DNA from: Candidatus Pacearchaeota archaeon
GTDB lineage: Archaea; Nanobdellota; Nanobdellia; Pacearchaeales; UBA284
Assembly: GCA_038894195.1 (NCBI GenBank)
Contig: JAWAPZ010000001.1
Coordinates: forward strand, 129,566 to 193,565
DNA length: 64,000 nt
Reading direction: 5' to 3'
The notes under the pieces were generated by a model. That model had not been told where the DNA came from and ran no database searches. It was given only the letters and a program-made list of their open reading frames with translations. This document shows positions 3,881-62,842 of this stretch, one piece after another. A program made the translations under genes and the position numbers. The first letter of the stretch is position 1. Each line of letters starts with the position of its first letter.

Positions 3881-4033
3881 GCCCCGATGGTGCAACGGTT
3901 AACATAGAACCCTGTCAGAGCCTTTTAAAAAGCCTCGGGAAACTAGTGCTTTAGGCTACTGAACGGTTCAGATCCGAGTTCGAATATAAGGGTAAACCCT
4001 TGTCAACCCTTAACGAAATTCTCGGTCGGGGCG
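3881..4033 (+). tRNA. Intron-containing tRNA, isotype undetermined; T-loop (59/60) intron plus probable further intron(s)
   Basis: Perfect 7-bp acceptor stem GCCCCGA/TCGGGGC. T-arm CCGAG-TTCGAA[35-nt insert]T-CTCGG. Discriminator G. TATA-like TTTTAAAAAA about 25 nt upstream. D-arm and anticodon arm are not contiguous, implying additional introns. Confidence 0.5.
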
Positions 4034-6884: not shown

Positions 6885-7057
6885 GGGCCCGTAGCTCAGC
6901 CTGGTTAGAGCACTGGCCTTTTAAATAAGGACACTTCCTTATGAACCTTTAAATTAAAGGTAGAAGGAGAAAGCCAGGTGTCGGGGGTTCGAATGATCAG
7001 AAACCTACGGTTTCCGATGCTTTCCCTTGAGGAAAAACGAAAATCCCCTCGGGCCCG
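6885..7057 (+). tRNA. tRNA-Lys(TTT) with two introns: anticodon loop (~6925-6972) and T-loop 59/60 (~6994-7043)
   Basis: Acceptor GGGCCCG/CGGGCCC. D-arm TAGCTCAGCCTGGTTAGAGCA. Anticodon stem CTGGC, loop CTTTTAA, 48-nt intron, then GCCAG. T-arm GGGGG-TTCGAA[50 nt]T-CCCCT. Discriminator G. Confidence 0.75.
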
Positions 7058-11853: not shown

Positions 11854-12453
11854 TTAATAAGCAAAAAAATCAATTTTACACCTTGACATTATTTTATAAA
11901 ATTCCAGGTCTCTTTTGTATTCTGTGTGTTCTTCATATAAAAAAAGGGCTTTTGCCATCCCCTCCCAAAAAAAGAACCATCCTGCCGGCTCTAAAACTAC
12001 AATAAGGACTGCAGAAATGAAACTTCCCTCTAAAAAATGAGTAAATAAAACAATCGCTCCTAAAATCATTAATAGAAACCCAAGCGAAGCAAGAATTAAG
12101 CCATTTTTTCTTTTGTCTCTAACCTCCTTTTCCTTTGCTCTGAAATGCTCCTCAAAGTGATTTTTCAACCTTTTTTTGATAATTCTTTCAATCTTTAAAT
12201 CTCTCTTGTTTTCTGGTATCATAAATTTTAATTCATGAATTCCTGGTCCTTTTTCTCTAACCGCTTTTTTTGCTTCAAGCAAAAAATCGTCTGAAAGAGC
12301 CCTTATAGATAGGTCTCTTGGGTCAAAATCAGAGAATATATCATTGTAGGTATCCAGTAGAATACTTATCTCTGACATGTCTAAAAGATATTTTTTATGC
12401 TTTGCACACTGCTCAAATGATGGTACTTTTAAGATCTTTTCCTCTTTTTCCAT
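11854..12453 (-). CDS. Hypothetical membrane protein
   Basis: 199 aa with two C-terminal TM helices. Confidence 0.35.
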   Translation of the reverse strand: MEKEEKILKVPSFEQCAKHKKYLLDMSEISILLDTYNDIFSDFDPRDLSIRALSDDFLLEAKKAVREKGPGIHELKFMIPENKRDLKIERIIKKRLKNHFEEHFRAKEKEVRDKRKNGLILASLGFLLMILGAIVLFTHFLEGSFISAVLIVVLEPAGWFFFWEGMAKALFLYEEHTEYKRDLEFYKIMSRCKIDFFAY

Positions 12454-12491
12454 GCTTCTAGATAGAAATCATAATTTTTAAGTTTATCGTG

Positions 12492-12534
12492 ATAAGGGCA
12501 CACCTACTTATCAACCCTTAATGAACATTTAACG
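12492..12534 (+). repeat. Free-standing copy of the tRNA-intron-like hairpin element (ATAAGGG...CTTAT-CAACCCTTAA)
   Basis: ATAAGGGCACACCTACTTATCAACCCTTAATGAACATTTAACG resembles the intron of the tRNA at 3985-4019, the Lys anticodon intron and the Ser intron repeat unit. It lies across the 3' end of the aCPSF1 gene and the adjoining spacer. Confidence 0.4.
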
Positions 12535-14436
12535 TATTCTTATTGTGTCTAAGTTCCTTGGAACAGTTGTTTCTACTTTATAAAGTTTATAGAAAGTTGA
12601 AGCCAAATCCAGAGAACGAGAAAGCTCACCATGATTAATTATGATCCTTTTTGGTGAAGGTACTAAGTTGTTTACAAAACTCAAAAGTTCTTTTCTTCCA
12701 GCATGACCTGAAAAACCATCTAGAGAATGAACTTCCATTTTTAAAGTAGCGTGTTCTTCTTTTTCGCCCTCGAATTTTATTTCTTTCAAGCCCTCTTGAA
12801 TCTGCCTTCCTAGAGAACCTGCAGCCTGATAACAAACAAAAATCAGTGTGTTTAGTTTATTGTCTATTAAATTTTTTAAATACTCCACACTAGCTCCCCC
12901 GACCAACATTCCAGATGTTGCAAGTATAATACAAGGGCCACCTTCGAGAACTTGCTGTCTTTCTTGTGGCGAACCCACATGCTTAATATTATCGGACAAG
13001 AAAGGGTTCTGGTCCTGGAAAATCAAGGACCTTAGATTAGAAGAAAGAAAATTAGGATATGCTGTGTGTATTGCAGTTACATCCCAAACAAGACCATCTA
13101 CATAAACATTGACATTTTTAGGAAGCTTGCCCTCCTTTATTGCATTATCTATTACAAGAATCTCTTCCTGTCCTCTTCCAACACCGAGAACAGGAATAAG
13201 TACCTTGCCTTTTCTCTCGAGGGTCTTGTTTATTATTTCGATAAGTGAAGCCTCGAGCTCTTTTCTTGGCAAAAAAATGTTTTGCTGACCACCATATGTG
13301 CTTTCACAAATCAGTGTTTCTAAACGAGGAAAATTACAAGCAGCAAGATCTAGAACCCTAGATCTTGAGAATTTAAAGTCAGCTGTATAGAGTAAATTAT
13401 GCAAACCATTACCTATATTAAGATGTATCATTGAACTTCCAAGGCAGTGCCCAGCATTGTACAAAGTGAGTCGAACATCAGGAGTTATATCAGTAACTTC
13501 ATTATACTCCAATTCAACAGAGTGTTTTATCATTGTCTTAACGTCAGCAACCCTAAAGAGAGGTGCTACTGCTTGTTTATAGCTGACTCCTATAAAATCT
13601 AGAGCAAGTAAAGCTGTTATGTCTCTTGTAGGAGCAGTCATGTAACAGGGACCTCTATAACCTATTCTATAAAGGTATGGCAAAACACCACTGTGGTCAA
13701 GATGCGCATGCGAAAGTATAACGGCGTCTATGCTCTTGAGATCAAATTCGGGCGCATTAAAATAAGGAAATTTTTCTGAATTAACCCCCGCAACATTTAT
13801 GCCGCAATCAAGCAAGATTCTAGATTCGGGTGTTTGTAACAGTAAGCAACTTCGGCCAACTTGTCTTCCCCCCCCAAGAAAACTTATTCTTACCCACTCT
13901 TCTTTTTTCTCAGGACTCCATTCTTTATAGATCTTTTTACCTATGCTATTTAAAAATTTCTTTCTGTAACCTTCCTTTTCAAAAAGAGTGTGCCTTATTG
14001 CAGTAGTGATTTTACTTTGAATTGCTGGGATTCTAGAAACTTGGGGTGTCCAAAAAGTTTTTTCTTTAATGCTCTTTAGTATTTCGCCTCCCTTGCCTAT
14101 CGCTAATCCTGGTTTTTTTGTTTCTATGACTACTATGCTTCTTGCATCGTCAAACAAAACACCTTGAACTTCGGCTTCTTTTGGTACAAGTTCTTGGATT
14201 ATCTTCTCTGTTTTATCGTGATCTAACAAAATTTCTTTTTCTGCCCTTAGCTCTACACGTTTTTTAATCTTGTTGACTATCTCTCTAATTTTTTCATCAC
14301 TTTCATGGAAAAATTCCTTATCACGAGTGTAAAGAACAATGTTTGCTCCTTCAAAGTTTGCAGAGCTGATTACCTTTGGTAGTTCGTCTAAAATTACTTT
14401 TAAGATGTCTGGCATTTTTAATTTTTTACTAGCCAA
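12529..14436 (-). CDS. aCPSF1: KH-domain / metallo-beta-lactamase / beta-CASP ribonuclease
   Basis: 635 aa. N-terminal KH domains. HAHLDHSG metallo-beta-lactamase motif and beta-CASP C-terminal region. Confidence 0.85.
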   Translation of the reverse strand: MASKKLKMPDILKVILDELPKVISSANFEGANIVLYTRDKEFFHESDEKIREIVNKIKKRVELRAEKEILLDHDKTEKIIQELVPKEAEVQGVLFDDARSIVVIETKKPGLAIGKGGEILKSIKEKTFWTPQVSRIPAIQSKITTAIRHTLFEKEGYRKKFLNSIGKKIYKEWSPEKKEEWVRISFLGGGRQVGRSCLLLQTPESRILLDCGINVAGVNSEKFPYFNAPEFDLKSIDAVILSHAHLDHSGVLPYLYRIGYRGPCYMTAPTRDITALLALDFIGVSYKQAVAPLFRVADVKTMIKHSVELEYNEVTDITPDVRLTLYNAGHCLGSSMIHLNIGNGLHNLLYTADFKFSRSRVLDLAACNFPRLETLICESTYGGQQNIFLPRKELEASLIEIINKTLERKGKVLIPVLGVGRGQEEILVIDNAIKEGKLPKNVNVYVDGLVWDVTAIHTAYPNFLSSNLRSLIFQDQNPFLSDNIKHVGSPQERQQVLEGGPCIILATSGMLVGGASVEYLKNLIDNKLNTLIFVCYQAAGSLGRQIQEGLKEIKFEGEKEEHATLKMEVHSLDGFSGHAGRKELLSFVNNLVPSPKRIIINHGELSRSLDLASTFYKLYKVETTVPRNLDTIRIR

Positions 14437-15324: not shown

Positions 15325-15440
15325 TCCCCGCAGCCGGATTTGAACCGGCAACCTCACGGGTTCTATGAACGCATGCTCGAGTTTCACGCAAAATGATGCA
15401 TAAACTACAGCCGTGCGCTCCACCATTGAGCTATGCGGGG
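15325..15440 (-). tRNA. tRNA-Tyr(GTA) with ~45-nt anticodon-loop intron
   Basis: Reverse complement shows acceptor CCCCGCA/TGCGGGG, D-arm GCTC-AATGGTG-GAGC, anticodon stem CACGG/CCGTG around CTGTAG plus intron, T-arm GCCGG-TTCAAAT-CCGGC. Discriminator A. Confidence 0.75.
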
Positions 15441-19247: not shown

Positions 19248-19320
19248 TGCTCCTGCCGAGATTTGAACTCGGGTCACAGCCGTGAGAGGGCTGTATCCTT
19301 GGCCTCTAGACTACAGGAGC
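19248..19320 (-). tRNA. tRNA-Glu(CTC), intron-less
   Basis: Reverse complement: GCTCCTG/CAGGAGC acceptor, anticodon stem CAGCC/GGCTG with loop CTCTCAC, T-arm CGAG-TTCAAAT-CTCG. Discriminator A. Confidence 0.85.
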
Positions 19321-19557: not shown

Positions 19558-19657
19558 TAGCCCTGCCAGGATTTTCTTAAGCATCTAAAAAATGCTCGTT
19601 CGAACCTGGGTCCTTTGGGCCAGAGCCAAAGATCCTTGACCGCTAGACTACAGGGCT
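19558..19657 (-). tRNA. tRNA-Gln(CTG) with 27-nt intron at T-loop position 59/60
   Basis: Reverse complement: AGCCCTG/CAGGGCT acceptor. Anticodon stem TTTGG/CCAAA with loop CTCTGGC. T-arm CCAGG-TTCGAA[CGAGCATTTTTTAGATGCTTAAGAAAA]T-CCTGG. Confidence 0.75.
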
Positions 19658-19711: not shown

Positions 19712-19797
19712 GCCTCGGTAGCTCAGTTGGTTAGTAGCGCGACCTTGGTAATTAACTAAAAAGGTCGAGGTCCCGTGTTCAAATCACGGCCGAGGCT
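19712..19797 (+). tRNA. tRNA-Thr(GGT) with short (~11-nt) anticodon-loop intron
   Basis: GCCTCGG/CCGAGGC acceptor. Anticodon stem CGACC/GGTCG enclosing TTGGTAA plus TTAACTAAAAA. T-arm CCGTG-TTCAAAT-CACGG. D-stem pairing is imperfect. Confidence 0.65.
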
Positions 19798-45367: not shown

Positions 45368-45402
45368 AAAGATTTTAAATTGCTTCTTCTTTATATTTTT
45401 AT

Positions 45403-45600
45403 GCCGACGTGGCCCAATGGTACGGCGCCCGCCTTGAGAGCGGGTTCCCGCAAGGGTTTCCAGGTTCGAAAATAAGGAACACATTTCCTTATCAACCTTT
45501 GGAAGAATAAGGAACACATTTCCTTATCAACCTTTGGAAGAATAAGGAACACATTTCCTTATCAACCTTTGAGTTGAAAACGAAAATCCTGGCGTCGGCG
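45403..45600 (+). tRNA. tRNA-Ser(TGA) with ~116-nt intron at T-loop position 59/60
   Basis: Acceptor GCCGACG/CGTCGGC. D-arm GCC-CAATGGTAC-GGC. Anticodon stem CCCGC/GCGGG with loop CTTGAGA. Long variable arm TCCCGCAAGGGT. T-arm CCAGG-TTCGAA[intron]T-CCTGG. Discriminator G. TATA-like TTTTAAAT about 25 nt upstream. Confidence 0.8.
45471..45575 (+). repeat. Three tandem direct repeats of a 35-bp unit inside the tRNA-Ser intron (third copy truncated)
   Basis: The unit AATAAGGAACACATTTCCTTATCAACCTTTGGAAG occupies 45471-45505 and 45506-45540. Copy 3 (45541-45570) diverges into GAGTTGAAAACGAAAA. Each unit has the hairpin TAAGGAA...TTCCTTA. Confidence 0.9.
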
Positions 45601-62477: not shown

Positions 62478-62842
62478 TGTAGTCAGGAGGCTGACTGTCT
62501 CACTTAAGTGGGAGGAAGGTCCGCTCACCCATAAAGATCTGGGCAAGCATTTTGTCCGACTTTATGAAGTAGCTGGCTTTCGCAAGAAAGTTTGTCGTGA
62601 GGCAAAGCTCTGCCACAGAAACGACACAGCTTTCATGGAGATATGAAGCATGCGCTGATCTGGGAAATGAAAGACTTGATGAAACGCCTTGTTTTTTAAC
62701 AAGGCACGCCAAAATCTTAGATTTTGCGCGTGGGCAACTCAGCTGGTGCAACTCTTCGAGAGGCGAAGTCGGATGTTGGCATGGTCGGTTTTGGGCAAAA
62801 AGCCAAAGGACCAACAGAAAGCGGCCTACTCCTGACTGCAAA
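62478..62842 (+). ncRNA. rnpB: RNase P RNA (type A-like)
   Basis: GC-rich island. GGGAGGAAGGTCCGCTCACC matches the conserved GAGGAAAGTCCGGGCTC region. ACAGAAAGCGGCCTACTCC matches ACAGAANCCGGCTTA. P1 pairing AGTCAGGAG/CTCCTGACT at the ends. Overlapping ORFs have no protein-like features. Confidence 0.7.

What the first reader, a model, noticed from the sequence alone, without database searches (positions are those of the whole stretch)
45465..45592. tRNA-Ser intron expanded by three tandem 35-bp repeats
The 59/60 intron of tRNA-Ser(TGA) contains the 35-bp unit AATAAGGAACACATTTCCTTATCAACCTTTGGAAG in perfect tandem twice, plus a 30-nt third copy. Each unit carries a 7-bp hairpin. The unit length equals the 35-nt T-loop intron of the tRNA at 3881, and the sequence resembles the Lys anticodon intron. 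Tandem amplification inside a tRNA intron is unusual. It could be replication slippage of a mobile intron-like module, or a processed small-RNA or protein-binding array.
Basis: seen in the sequence. Interest (0 to 1): 0.75.

Follow-up and report, generated by a model that had tools for sequence, protein, structure and literature searches.

The report
Tandemly expanded T-loop intron in tRNA-Ser
A serine tRNA gene of a tiny uncultured archaeon is interrupted in its T-loop by a 116-base intron made of three head-to-tail copies of a small hairpin module; the module belongs to a widespread family of intron-like elements in these archaea, so the case is a curiosity that says something about how such introns spread, not a new kind of system.

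Summary
Bases 45471-45571 are 2.9 perfect copies of a 35-nt unit. They lie inside a 116-nt intron (45471-45586) between positions 59 and 60 of tRNA-Ser(UGA), in a Candidatus Pacearchaeota (DPANN) genome. The outer junctions form a relaxed bulge-helix-bulge: T-stem, then UUCG:CGAA, with 3-nt bulges. Removing the 116 nt in silico gives a tRNA-Ser that ARAGORN accepts.

The unit is one member of a module family, AUAAGG-hairpin-CCUUAUCAACC.
- In this window it also forms the 35-nt 59/60 intron of tRNA-Asp and the 5' end of the 37/38 intron of tRNA-Lys, and it occurs once as a degenerate copy outside any tRNA.
- A pattern scan found 46 loci, about 45 of them in DPANN genomes (one is annotated Chlorobiota and shows no tRNA), in many different tRNAs.
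- Intron and exon covary as a splice helix requires.
- Syntenic tRNA-Ser genes of relatives have a 15-nt intron or none.
- Two-module and multi-module arrays occur elsewhere, inside and outside tRNAs.

Best reading: an ordinary endonuclease-spliced intron of a mobile family, recently lengthened by local duplication, with no function of its own. Copy number is unverified: a second assembly breaks inside the array.

It is a new variant of a known kind, of moderate interest.

The parts
45373..45380 (+). TATA-box-like element TTTTAAAT, 23-30 nt upstream of the tRNA start
   Evidence: Read directly. The same (T)TTTAAA element sits at the same distance upstream of the syntenic tRNA-Ser genes in L001, L007 and L008. 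Promoter function is inferred.
45403..45470 (+). tRNA-Ser(UGA) exon 1, tRNA positions 1-59 (acceptor GCCGACG, anticodon TGA, long variable arm, T-stem CCAGG, T-loop TTCGAA)
   Evidence: Manual parse. ARAGORN calls tRNA-Ser(tga) after in-silico splicing. Rfam's tRNA model matches 45412-45444 only partially.
45465..45468 (+). TTCG (positions 54-57), the 5' strand of the 4-bp central helix of the bulge-helix-bulge
   Evidence: Pairs with 45581-45584 in the minimum-free-energy folds. It is the best candidate in the BHB scan. Across the family, position 57 covaries with the intron partner.
45471..45586 (+). 116-nt intron between tRNA positions 59 and 60
   Evidence: BHB scan: cut after 45470 and after 45586, 4/4 central pairs, 5-bp outer helix. 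Its removal restores a tRNA.
45471..45505 (+). repeat unit 1 (35 nt); its hairpin starts at intron base 2, directly next to the 5' splice bulge
   Evidence: Covariance model R1 scores 35.8 bits.
45506..45540 (+). repeat unit 2 (35 nt), identical to unit 1
   Evidence: R1 scores 30.1 bits.
45541..45571 (+). repeat unit 3, the first 31 nt of the unit
   Evidence: R1 scores 30.1 bits. The identical sequence lies at the end of the independent Logan contig L064.
45572..45586 (+). unique intron tail AGTTGAAAACGAAAA; CGAA (45581-45584) is the 3' strand of the central helix and AA (45585-45586) plus T60 form the 3' bulge
   Evidence: Together with unit 3 it makes a 46-nt intron that folds into the BHB with probability about 0.9.
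45587..45600 (+). tRNA-Ser exon 2, positions 60-73 (T60, T-stem CCTGG, acceptor CGTCGGC, discriminator G)
   Evidence: Identical in L064.
3985..4019 (+). 35-nt 59/60 intron of tRNA-Asp(GUC) (gene 3881-4033), a single copy of the same module family
   Evidence: R1 scores 34 bits. Aligned.
6924..6971 (+). 48-nt 37/38 intron of tRNA-Lys(UUU) (gene 6885-7057); its 5' end is the closest relative of the Ser unit in the window
   Evidence: R1 scores 25.7 bits at 6923-6950. Sequence. ARAGORN calls tRNA-Lys(ttt) with a 48-nt intron. Aligned.
12490..12519 (+). solo degenerate module outside any tRNA, in the 75-nt spacer between two minus-strand genes (FttA 12529-14436 and ORF 11854-12453)
   Evidence: R1 scores 20.5 bits, E 0.011. 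Its tail CTTATCAACCCTTAATGAA is identical to the intron in L050. ORF context.

Best explanation
This is an archaeal protein-spliced (bulge-helix-bulge) intron at position 59/60 of the single tRNA-Ser(UGA) gene seen in this Pacearchaeota window.

The working intron is the last 46 nt: hairpin 1, a CAA linker, a small second hairpin, then CGAA-AA. CGAA pairs with T-loop bases 54-57 (UUCG). The T-stem lies on one side of that helix and hairpin 1 on the other, so each splice site sits in a 3-nt bulge. The splicing endonuclease would cut there and the ligase would join the exons. This step is inferred; the enzymes are not in the window.

The intron belongs to a family of short structured modules (AUAAGG-hairpin-CCUUAUCAACC). 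The family has spread among tRNA genes and tRNA positions in DPANN archaea.

In this lineage the 5' module was duplicated twice very recently at the DNA level, by slippage or unequal recombination once two copies existed. This added 70 nt of passenger sequence in the part of the intron where length varies across the family. The extra copies have no function of their own and may be mildly harmful to folding.
For: - Repeat and coordinates.
- BHB: the best candidate cuts after 45470 and 45586, with 4/4 central pairs and a 5-bp outer helix. The minimum-free-energy folds keep it.
- In-silico splicing gives tRNA-Ser(tga); the unspliced locus gives nothing.
- Exons look functional. All stems are complementary, and the acceptor stem differs from the orthologues on both strands, GCCGACG/CGTCGGC against GCCGGGA/TCCCGGC. 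A TATA-like box is conserved upstream.
- The family is real. A T-loop-plus-module pattern hit 46 loci in species-representative genomes, where I estimate fewer than 1 by chance. In 38 of 49 cases ARAGORN finds a tRNA after removal of the predicted intron, covering many isoacceptors.
- T-loop base 57 covaries with intron base n-5 (G:C 19, A:U 19, 6 other), and the inner hairpin pairs covary.
- The same module is in Asp 59/60 and Lys 37/38 in this window.
- The expansion is lineage-specific. Syntenic tRNA-Ser genes have a 15-nt intron (identical in six assemblies) or none.
- Family intron lengths run from 35 to 114 nt, so the body tolerates insertions. Two-module introns occur in L048 and L040 and in L061.
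- The 46-nt last copy alone folds into the BHB with probability about 0.9.
- No mobile-element or reverse-transcriptase genes were found among the larger ORFs scanned.
Against: - The inter-unit junction ...CCTTTG-GAAG-AATAAGG contains GAAG, which is absent from the single-copy reconstruction. A plain tandem duplication of that reconstruction therefore cannot give the array; either filler was added or the last copy was later remodelled.
- The array begins exactly at intron base 1, which a random internal duplication would do only about 1 time in 35-46. A splice-site-precise process is therefore not excluded.
- In whole-pre-tRNA partition functions, the splice helix probability drops from about 0.9 to about 0.27 with the extra units, so neutrality is not shown.
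- Copy number rests on one assembly.
- There are no expression or splicing data.
- The endonuclease and ligase genes were not seen in the window.
Confidence: 0.68

Rival explanations
1. The array was built at the RNA level. Excised introns were joined head to tail by the tRNA ligase, or a circular intron was copied round and round. The product was then reverse-transcribed and recombined into the gene, so each unit would be a complete intron.
For: The periodic region starts exactly at the predicted first intron base. The unit is 35 nt, the length of the shortest complete family members: Asp here, and L027, L050, L051. The unit ends in TGGA-AG, which mimics a 3' splice strand plus bulge (U-A, U-G, C-G, G-U against UUCG). 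A solo intron-like copy lies outside any tRNA at 12490-12519.
Against: With the 35-nt unit as the only intron, the BHB does not form in the folding model: probability 0 in the full pre-tRNA and about 0.1 in the T-arm alone. The last copy has a different 15-nt tail, so the array is not a whole number of identical introns. No reverse transcriptase was found among the larger ORFs scanned. The junctions of the older two-module introns L048 and L040 do not end in a usable 3' strand.
Confidence: 0.07
2. The repeated units are functional: a multivalent binding platform for a protein, a stable circular or processed small RNA, or a decoy that tunes how fast tRNA-Ser is spliced.
For: The module's primary sequence is shared across DPANN lineages well beyond what a BHB needs, although that core was part of the search pattern. 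The unit tail can pair with the exon (UUUCCAGG) and lowers the predicted splice-competent fraction. Arrays of the module also occur outside introns, in L059 and L060.
Against: The copies are 100% identical, so they are too young for selection to be visible. Orthologous tRNA-Ser genes manage with 15 nt or no intron. There are no C/D boxes in the unit (read directly) and no Rfam family. Other T-loop introns in the same window lack the module (Gln, Lys T-loop).
Confidence: 0.1
3. The copy number is an assembly artefact: the real locus has one or two units.
For: A 35-nt period makes a loop in de Bruijn graphs. The independent Logan assembly of SRR27730018 breaks exactly inside the array. The exact unit is absent from JGI metagenome contigs, so no second population confirms it.
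Against: The whole array is 101 nt, shorter than a normal read, so read threading normally resolves it. The Logan contig stops at the repeat edge, at the point where the 30-mer ATAAGG...CCTTTG would have two different continuations (+A in the last copy, +G in inner copies). That is what at least two copies with different right contexts would produce; a low-coverage break is not excluded.
Confidence: 0.1
4. The gene is a decaying pseudogene that the expansion has made unspliceable.
For: The predicted splice-helix probability falls to about 0.27 in the full transcript.
Against: The exons are intact and show compensatory acceptor-stem changes. The promoter-like box and T-rich trailer are kept. 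The minimum-free-energy structure still contains the BHB. In the local T-arm context the probability stays about 0.9. No second tRNA-Ser(UGA) is in the window.
Confidence: 0.05

Closest known systems
Non-canonical archaeal BHB introns at tRNA position 59/60 (for example the hBH-type intron of ARMAN-2 pre-tRNA-Cys; PMC3239211), in DPANN lineages reported to have many disrupted tRNA genes (PMC5829648)
   Same: The position (59/60), the relaxed hBH geometry with the T-stem as outer helix, the DPANN host, and the fact that standard tRNA finders miss the gene.
   Different: Here the intron is 116 nt and is built from three perfect tandem copies of a module. The inner helix is replaced by a local hairpin that starts at intron base 2.
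Transposed tRNA intron families of Thermoproteales (Fujishima et al. 2010, as summarised in PMC4090602)
   Same: Near-identical intron sequences occur in different isoacceptors and at different tRNA positions within a genome: here Ser 59/60, Asp 59/60 and Lys 37/38. This implies intron spread after the tRNA genes diverged.
   Different: The host clade is different (DPANN, about 33% G+C). The hits carrying the core AUAAGG...CCUUAUCAACC (which was specified in the search pattern) are spread across several DPANN phyla. There are head-to-tail multi-copy introns, and copies and arrays outside tRNA genes. None of these was found in the papers searched.
Bacterial REP/BIME-type extragenic hairpin repeats
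   Same: A roughly 30-45-nt hairpin with a conserved flank, found singly and in tandem arrays in intergenic DNA (L059, L060, window 12490-12519).
   Different: In roughly 450 kb of DNA examined (selected around T-loop hits), most hits lie inside tRNA genes in the sense orientation, abutting a splice site. No associated transposase was seen. Membership was not tested beyond this resemblance.

Membership tests
Archaeal BHB (splicing-endonuclease) tRNA intron | Two 3-nt bulges carrying the splice sites, separated by a 4-bp helix and flanked by helices | tested here: met
   UUCG(54-57):CGAA(45581-45584), bulges AA|A and AA|U, and the T-stem as a 5-bp outer helix. The inner helix is not the canonical one; it is hairpin 1 starting at intron base 2. 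This is the relaxed hBH form known for 59/60 introns (PMC3239211).
Archaeal BHB (splicing-endonuclease) tRNA intron | Removal of the intron restores a canonical cloverleaf tRNA | tested here: met
   ARAGORN finds nothing in the unspliced locus and finds tRNA-Ser(tga) after deleting 45471-45586.
Archaeal BHB (splicing-endonuclease) tRNA intron | Exon-intron pairing maintained by compensatory change across homologues | tested here: met
   Position 57 against intron n-5: G:C 19, A:U 19, other 6, among 47 distinct family introns.
Archaeal BHB (splicing-endonuclease) tRNA intron | Cleavage by the host EndA and ligation by RtcB | not testable with these tools
   Neither gene was found among the larger window ORFs scanned against Pfam. 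The rest of the genome is not available. The literature reports alpha4 EndA with an extra loop in DPANN, Pacearchaeota being among the lineages analysed (PMC5829648).
Transposed (mobile) tRNA intron family | Closely similar intron sequence in different isoacceptors and at different tRNA positions | tested here: met
   Ser 59/60, Asp 59/60 and Lys 37/38 in this window. More than 15 isoacceptors across about 45 loci. Extra module copies lie near the 5' part of the same tRNAs in L033, L036 and L049; their boundaries were not determined.
Box C/D sRNA-bearing intron (tRNA-Trp type) | C (RUGAUGA) and D (CUGA) boxes with a guide segment | tested here: not met
   Neither TGATGA nor CTGA occurs in the unit or the tail (read). 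There is no snoRNA-type Rfam match above noise.
Self-splicing group I intron in a tRNA gene | Conserved P3-P8 catalytic core, usually more than 200 nt | tested here: not met
   The intron is 116 nt of repeated hairpins. There is no Rfam intron family at E up to 10.
REP/BIME- or MITE-like DNA repeat | Dispersed extragenic copies in both orientations, with an associated transposase or target-site duplications | tested here: inconclusive
   Extragenic copies exist: the window copy at 12490-12519, the L059 array between convergent genes, and the L060 array upstream of tRNA-Pro. L061 carries antisense copies. No transposase was seen, and the ends complementary to the T-loop follow the exon, so they are not target-site duplications.

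The most novel reading that the evidence does not exclude
The 35-nt unit is a copy of a so far undescribed, DPANN-wide small mobile element: a hairpin plus UCAACC. It settles in tRNA genes wherever a bulge-helix-bulge can form (37/38, 59/60, D-loop region). It also survives as solo copies and arrays outside tRNAs, and it multiplies head to tail. The exact coincidence of the array's start with the splice site would then be a footprint of the insertion or amplification mechanism, possibly through ligated or circular excised introns. That would give the first sequence-level handle on how archaeal tRNA introns are gained.
Probability: 0.2. Interest if true: 0.75.

Novelty: new variant of a known kind. 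Interest (0 to 1): 0.45.

Why it matters
How archaeal tRNA introns arise and move is unresolved; the review PMC4090602 calls the mechanism of intron transposition 'still unknown'. This locus catches a member of a mobile intron family just after it multiplied in place, and syntenic relatives show the smaller states (15 nt, or no intron). Together with the family survey it gives three things:
1. A defined sequence and structure motif for finding hidden tRNA genes in DPANN genomes. ARAGORN found 1 of the 7 tRNAs in this window.
2. A natural series (0, 1, 2, 3 modules) for testing how much intron body a broad-specificity splicing endonuclease tolerates.
3. Junction sequences that constrain models of intron gain.

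If the array is only a neutral duplication, the practical value is mainly for annotation.

Tried and rejected
- **Exact unit in other populations.** AAGGAACACATTTCCTTATCAACC has no match in JGI metagenome contigs, so copy-number variation could not be assessed.
- **Viral contigs.** Neither the T-loop family pattern nor the two-module pattern has a match.
- **Own contig.** The gene next to the tRNA (242 aa) and its database twin P0001 are not indexed. Neighbouring genes led to two Logan contigs of SRR27730018, neither of which spans the array.
- **Rfam.** Nothing covers the module, at gathering or permissive thresholds.
- **Internal splice sites.** A scan of all cut-site pairs found no in-phase internal bulge-helix-bulge that could remove single units, so this is one intron, not three nested ones.
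- **'Each unit is a complete intron'.** The unit alone does not fold into a BHB, so this was demoted to a low-probability rival.
- **Target-site duplication.** The intron's T-loop-like 3' end is complementary to the exon, not a copy of it: TTCA loops have TGAA, TTCG loops have CGAA. Rejected.
- **C/D-box guide RNA, group I intron, CRISPR-like array.** Rejected on sequence.
- **Mobile-element genes nearby.** Pfam scans of 30 of the 34 ORFs of at least 200 aa show housekeeping genes (aminoacyl-tRNA synthetases, exosome, proteasome, PFOR, FttA, S-layer-like and other surface proteins) and no transposase, integrase or reverse transcriptase.
- **L038 and L058.** These pattern hits (a Chlorobiota MAG and a GC-rich contig) look like chance matches and were set aside.

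Full report
**1. Observation**

Tandem Repeats Finder reports one strong array in the window: 45471-45571, period 35, 2.9 copies, 100% matches, score 202, consensus AATAAGGAACACATTTCCTTATCAACCTTTGGAAG. The full unit occurs exactly twice, at 45471 and 45506, where 100 shuffles gave none. A third copy of 31 nt follows, then 15 unique bases, AGTTGAAAACGAAAA. Each unit folds into an 8-bp hairpin with a 5-nt loop.

**2. The host gene**

Read by hand, 45403-45470 plus 45587-45600 is a class II tRNA.
- Acceptor stem GCCGACG/CGTCGGC.
- Anticodon loop CTTGAGA, so the anticodon is UGA (Ser).
- A long variable arm.
- T-stem CCAGG/CCTGG.
- T-loop TTCGAA...T.
- Discriminator G.

ARAGORN and Rfam at gathering threshold miss it. 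ARAGORN finds tRNA-Ser(tga) once 45471-45586 is deleted, and still finds nothing in the unspliced sequence.

A scan of every possible pair of cut sites for bulge-helix-bulge (BHB) geometry ranks one solution first: cuts after 45470 and 45586, a perfect 4-bp central helix (TTCG 54-57 with CGAA 45581-45584), and the 5-bp T-stem as outer helix. The minimum-free-energy folds of the whole precursor and of the T-arm keep this structure, with three hairpins in the intron body. Both fold significantly better than shuffles (z -5.2 and -4.8).

No in-phase internal BHB exists that would remove single units. This is therefore one 116-nt intron at 59/60, of the relaxed hBH type.

**3. Organism and orthologues**

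The gene just upstream encodes a 242-aa protein that is 100% identical to a Candidatus Pacearchaeota MAG protein on a 214,946-bp contig. The rest of the window is archaeal housekeeping: FttA, PheRS, AspRS, exosome, proteasome, PFOR, and an RNase P RNA just under Rfam's threshold.

Relatives at 40-48% identity keep the gene order: S-layer-like gene, two small genes, then tRNA-Ser(UGA).
- One lineage has a 15-nt 59/60 intron, AACAAGAATCGAAAA. It is identical in six assemblies.
- A complete 648-kb genome and a further MAG have no intron there.

The expansion is therefore specific to this lineage. The exons look functional: all stems pair, the acceptor stem has changed on both strands relative to the orthologues, and a TTTTAAA box sits about 25 nt upstream in all four.

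**4. The unit is one member of a module family**

Within the window:
- The 35-nt 59/60 intron of tRNA-Asp(GUC), 3985-4019, reads TATAAGGGTAAACCCTTGTCAACCCTTAACGAAAT.
- The 48-nt canonical intron of tRNA-Lys(UUU), 6924-6971, begins AATAAGGACACTTCCTTATGAACCTTT.

A pattern combining the T-loop with the module core (GTTCRAWWATAAGG N3-20 CCTTNTCAACC) hit 46 loci in one-genome-per-species archaeal and bacterial contigs, where I estimate fewer than one by chance. About 45 are in Woese-, Nano-, Aenigmat- and Micrarchaeota MAGs, up to five per genome. The remaining one, L038, is annotated Chlorobiota and shows no tRNA.

After removal of the predicted intron, ARAGORN recognises a tRNA in 38 of 49 cases, covering more than 15 isoacceptors. 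Intron lengths run from 35 to 114 nt.

Two kinds of covariation show that the structures are real:
- T-loop base 57 against intron base n-5 is G:C 19 times, A:U 19 times and other 6 times.
- The two inner hairpin pairs switch between G:C/A:U and U:A/C:G/G:C.

In every member the hairpin starts at intron base 2. The 5' bulge therefore lies between the central helix and the hairpin, which stands in for the missing inner helix.

A covariance model of the module (R1) finds only the expected copies in the window, plus the Lys intron and one degenerate solo copy at 12490-12519. The solo copy lies in a spacer between two genes and is not in a tRNA. Its tail is identical over 19 nt to an intron in L050.

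Rfam has no family for the module.

Note that the sequence conservation of the core is partly by construction, since the pattern required it. What the pattern does not impose is the number of hits, their spread across lineages and the covariation.

**5. Tandem copies elsewhere**

Among the family introns, L048 (tRNA-Ser GCU, 93 nt) and L040 (tRNA-Leu, 114 nt) carry two diverged modules in a row.

A metagenome scan for two modules in tandem returned five contigs:
- L061 is a tRNA-Trp with a 177-nt 59/60 intron holding three modules in the antisense orientation.
- L060 has 3.9 perfect 45-nt units directly upstream of a tRNA-Pro, on the opposite strand.
- L059 has about 2.5 units between convergent genes.
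- L057 has two.
- L058 looks unrelated.

Multiplication of this module therefore recurs, and not only inside introns. The window's array is the only one found that is both inside a sense-strand T-loop intron and perfectly identical.

**6. Effect of the extra copies (model only)**

| Construct | Context | Probability of central helix (and T-stem where modelled) |
|---|---|---|
| Last 46 nt as the only intron | full pre-tRNA | about 0.9 |
| One or two extra units | full pre-tRNA | about 0.27 |
| More extra units | full pre-tRNA | 0.1 or less |
| Full array | T-arm alone | about 0.9 |
| 35-nt unit as the only intron | full pre-tRNA / T-arm alone | 0 / about 0.1 |

The drop in the full precursor appears to arise because the unit tail CCUUUGGAAG can pair with UUUCCAGG of the exon (my reading of the folds). 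The 46-nt copy is thus the working intron, and the two full units are passengers that are at best neutral.

**7. Origin of the array**

Perfect identity means the duplications are recent. Going from two copies to three needs only misalignment by one unit.

The first step is less clear. The junction ...CCTTTG-GAAG-AATAAGG... contains four bases absent from the single-copy reconstruction, so a plain tandem duplication does not explain it. Either filler was added, or the tail of the last copy was remodelled afterwards.

The array also starts exactly at the predicted first intron base, and the unit ends in TGGA-AG, a weak mimic of a 3' splice strand. That is what head-to-tail joining of excised introns would give. 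I keep this as a low-probability rival for three reasons: the unit alone does not fold as an intron, the last copy differs, and no reverse transcriptase was seen.

**8. Assembly support**

Two contigs of an independent Logan assembly of run SRR27730018 carry the neighbouring genes.
- One stops about 800 nt upstream of the array.
- The other ends at ATAAGGAACACATTTCCTTATCAACCTTTGAGTTGAAAACGAAAATCCTGG..., that is, inside the array, with the right edge identical to the window.

A break at that point is what a repeat with two different right-hand continuations produces, although a low-coverage break is not excluded. The break is therefore consistent with at least two copies and says nothing about three. 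The exact unit is absent from JGI metagenome contigs.

**9. Comparison with what is known**

- Relaxed 59/60 introns are described for ARMAN-2 (PMC3239211).
- Pacearchaeota and Woesearchaeota are among the DPANN lineages analysed where a marked increase in disrupted tRNA genes goes with alpha4 endonucleases carrying an extra loop (PMC5829648).
- Intron families shared between isoacceptors and positions are known from Thermoproteales, with an unknown mechanism (PMC4090602).
- tRNAscan-SE's BHB models were trained on other phyla (PMC8450103).

Seven full-text searches found no report of tandem repeats inside an archaeal tRNA intron, nor of this motif. That shows absence from the held library only.

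**10. Verdict**

The feature is real and correctly described. It is an ordinary kind of element, a BHB intron of a mobile family, in an unusual state: three head-to-tail module copies. I rate it a new variant of a known kind and of moderate interest. The family-level result (a motif shared widely across DPANN genomes, at several tRNA positions, with copies outside tRNAs) is more interesting than the array itself.

Noticed in passing
window 3881-4033, 6885-7057, 15325-15440(-), 19248-19320(-), 19561-19657(-), 19713-19795, 45403-45600: There are seven tRNA genes in 64 kb. Six are interrupted, by eight introns in all: Asp 46+35 nt, Lys 48+50, Tyr 44, Gln 27, Thr 11, Ser 116. Four of the introns are at 59/60. 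ARAGORN on the raw window finds only tRNA-Glu, and Rfam finds two, so standard annotation would miss most of them.
   Followed up: yes
window 19561-19657 (-): tRNA-Gln(CUG) has a 27-nt 59/60 intron (CGAGCATTTTTTAGATGCTTAAGAAAA) with no module. Its central helix has only 3 of 4 pairs (TTCG against AGAA), which suggests the host endonuclease tolerates imperfect BHBs.
   Followed up: partly
window 6994-7043: The T-loop intron of tRNA-Lys (50 nt, TGATCAGAAACCTACGGTTTCCGATG...) is unrelated to the module. It starts with a C-box-like TGATCA, but no D box was seen.
   Followed up: no
window 12490-12519: A solo, degenerate copy of the intron module lies in the 75-nt spacer between FttA and the next gene, antisense to both. 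Its 19-nt tail is identical to a Woesearchaeota tRNA intron (L050).
   Followed up: partly
window 62479-62839: Archaeal RNase P RNA scores 82.1 bits, just below Rfam's gathering score of 84, so it is probably a real but divergent DPANN RNase P RNA.
   Followed up: no
L060 8440-8680: There are 3.9 perfect 45-nt units, each holding an antisense module, directly abutting and overlapping the first 9 nt of tRNA-Pro(GGG). Each unit ends with a near-copy of the tRNA's first 8 bases, so the duplication included the tRNA start.
   Followed up: partly
L061 541-842 (minus strand): This is a tRNA-Trp(CCA) with a 51-nt anticodon intron and a 177-nt 59/60 intron carrying three antisense modules. The hairpin interiors differ from each other while the linkers are identical.
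   Followed up: partly
L033, L036, L049: A second copy of the same module lies in the D-loop or anticodon-stem region of tRNAs that also carry it in the T-loop. The boundaries of these upstream introns were not determined.
   Followed up: no
L009 1790-1900: In the closest relative by the neighbouring protein (48% identity), the spacer after the gene holds a GC-rich stretch on the opposite strand. It may be a heavily interrupted tRNA; it was not resolved.
   Followed up: no
window 41491-62342: The tRNA-Ser sits in a 20-kb block of very large, N-glycosylation-sequon-rich surface proteins (754, 1140, 557, 1240, 541, 916 and 723 aa), most without Pfam matches.
   Followed up: no
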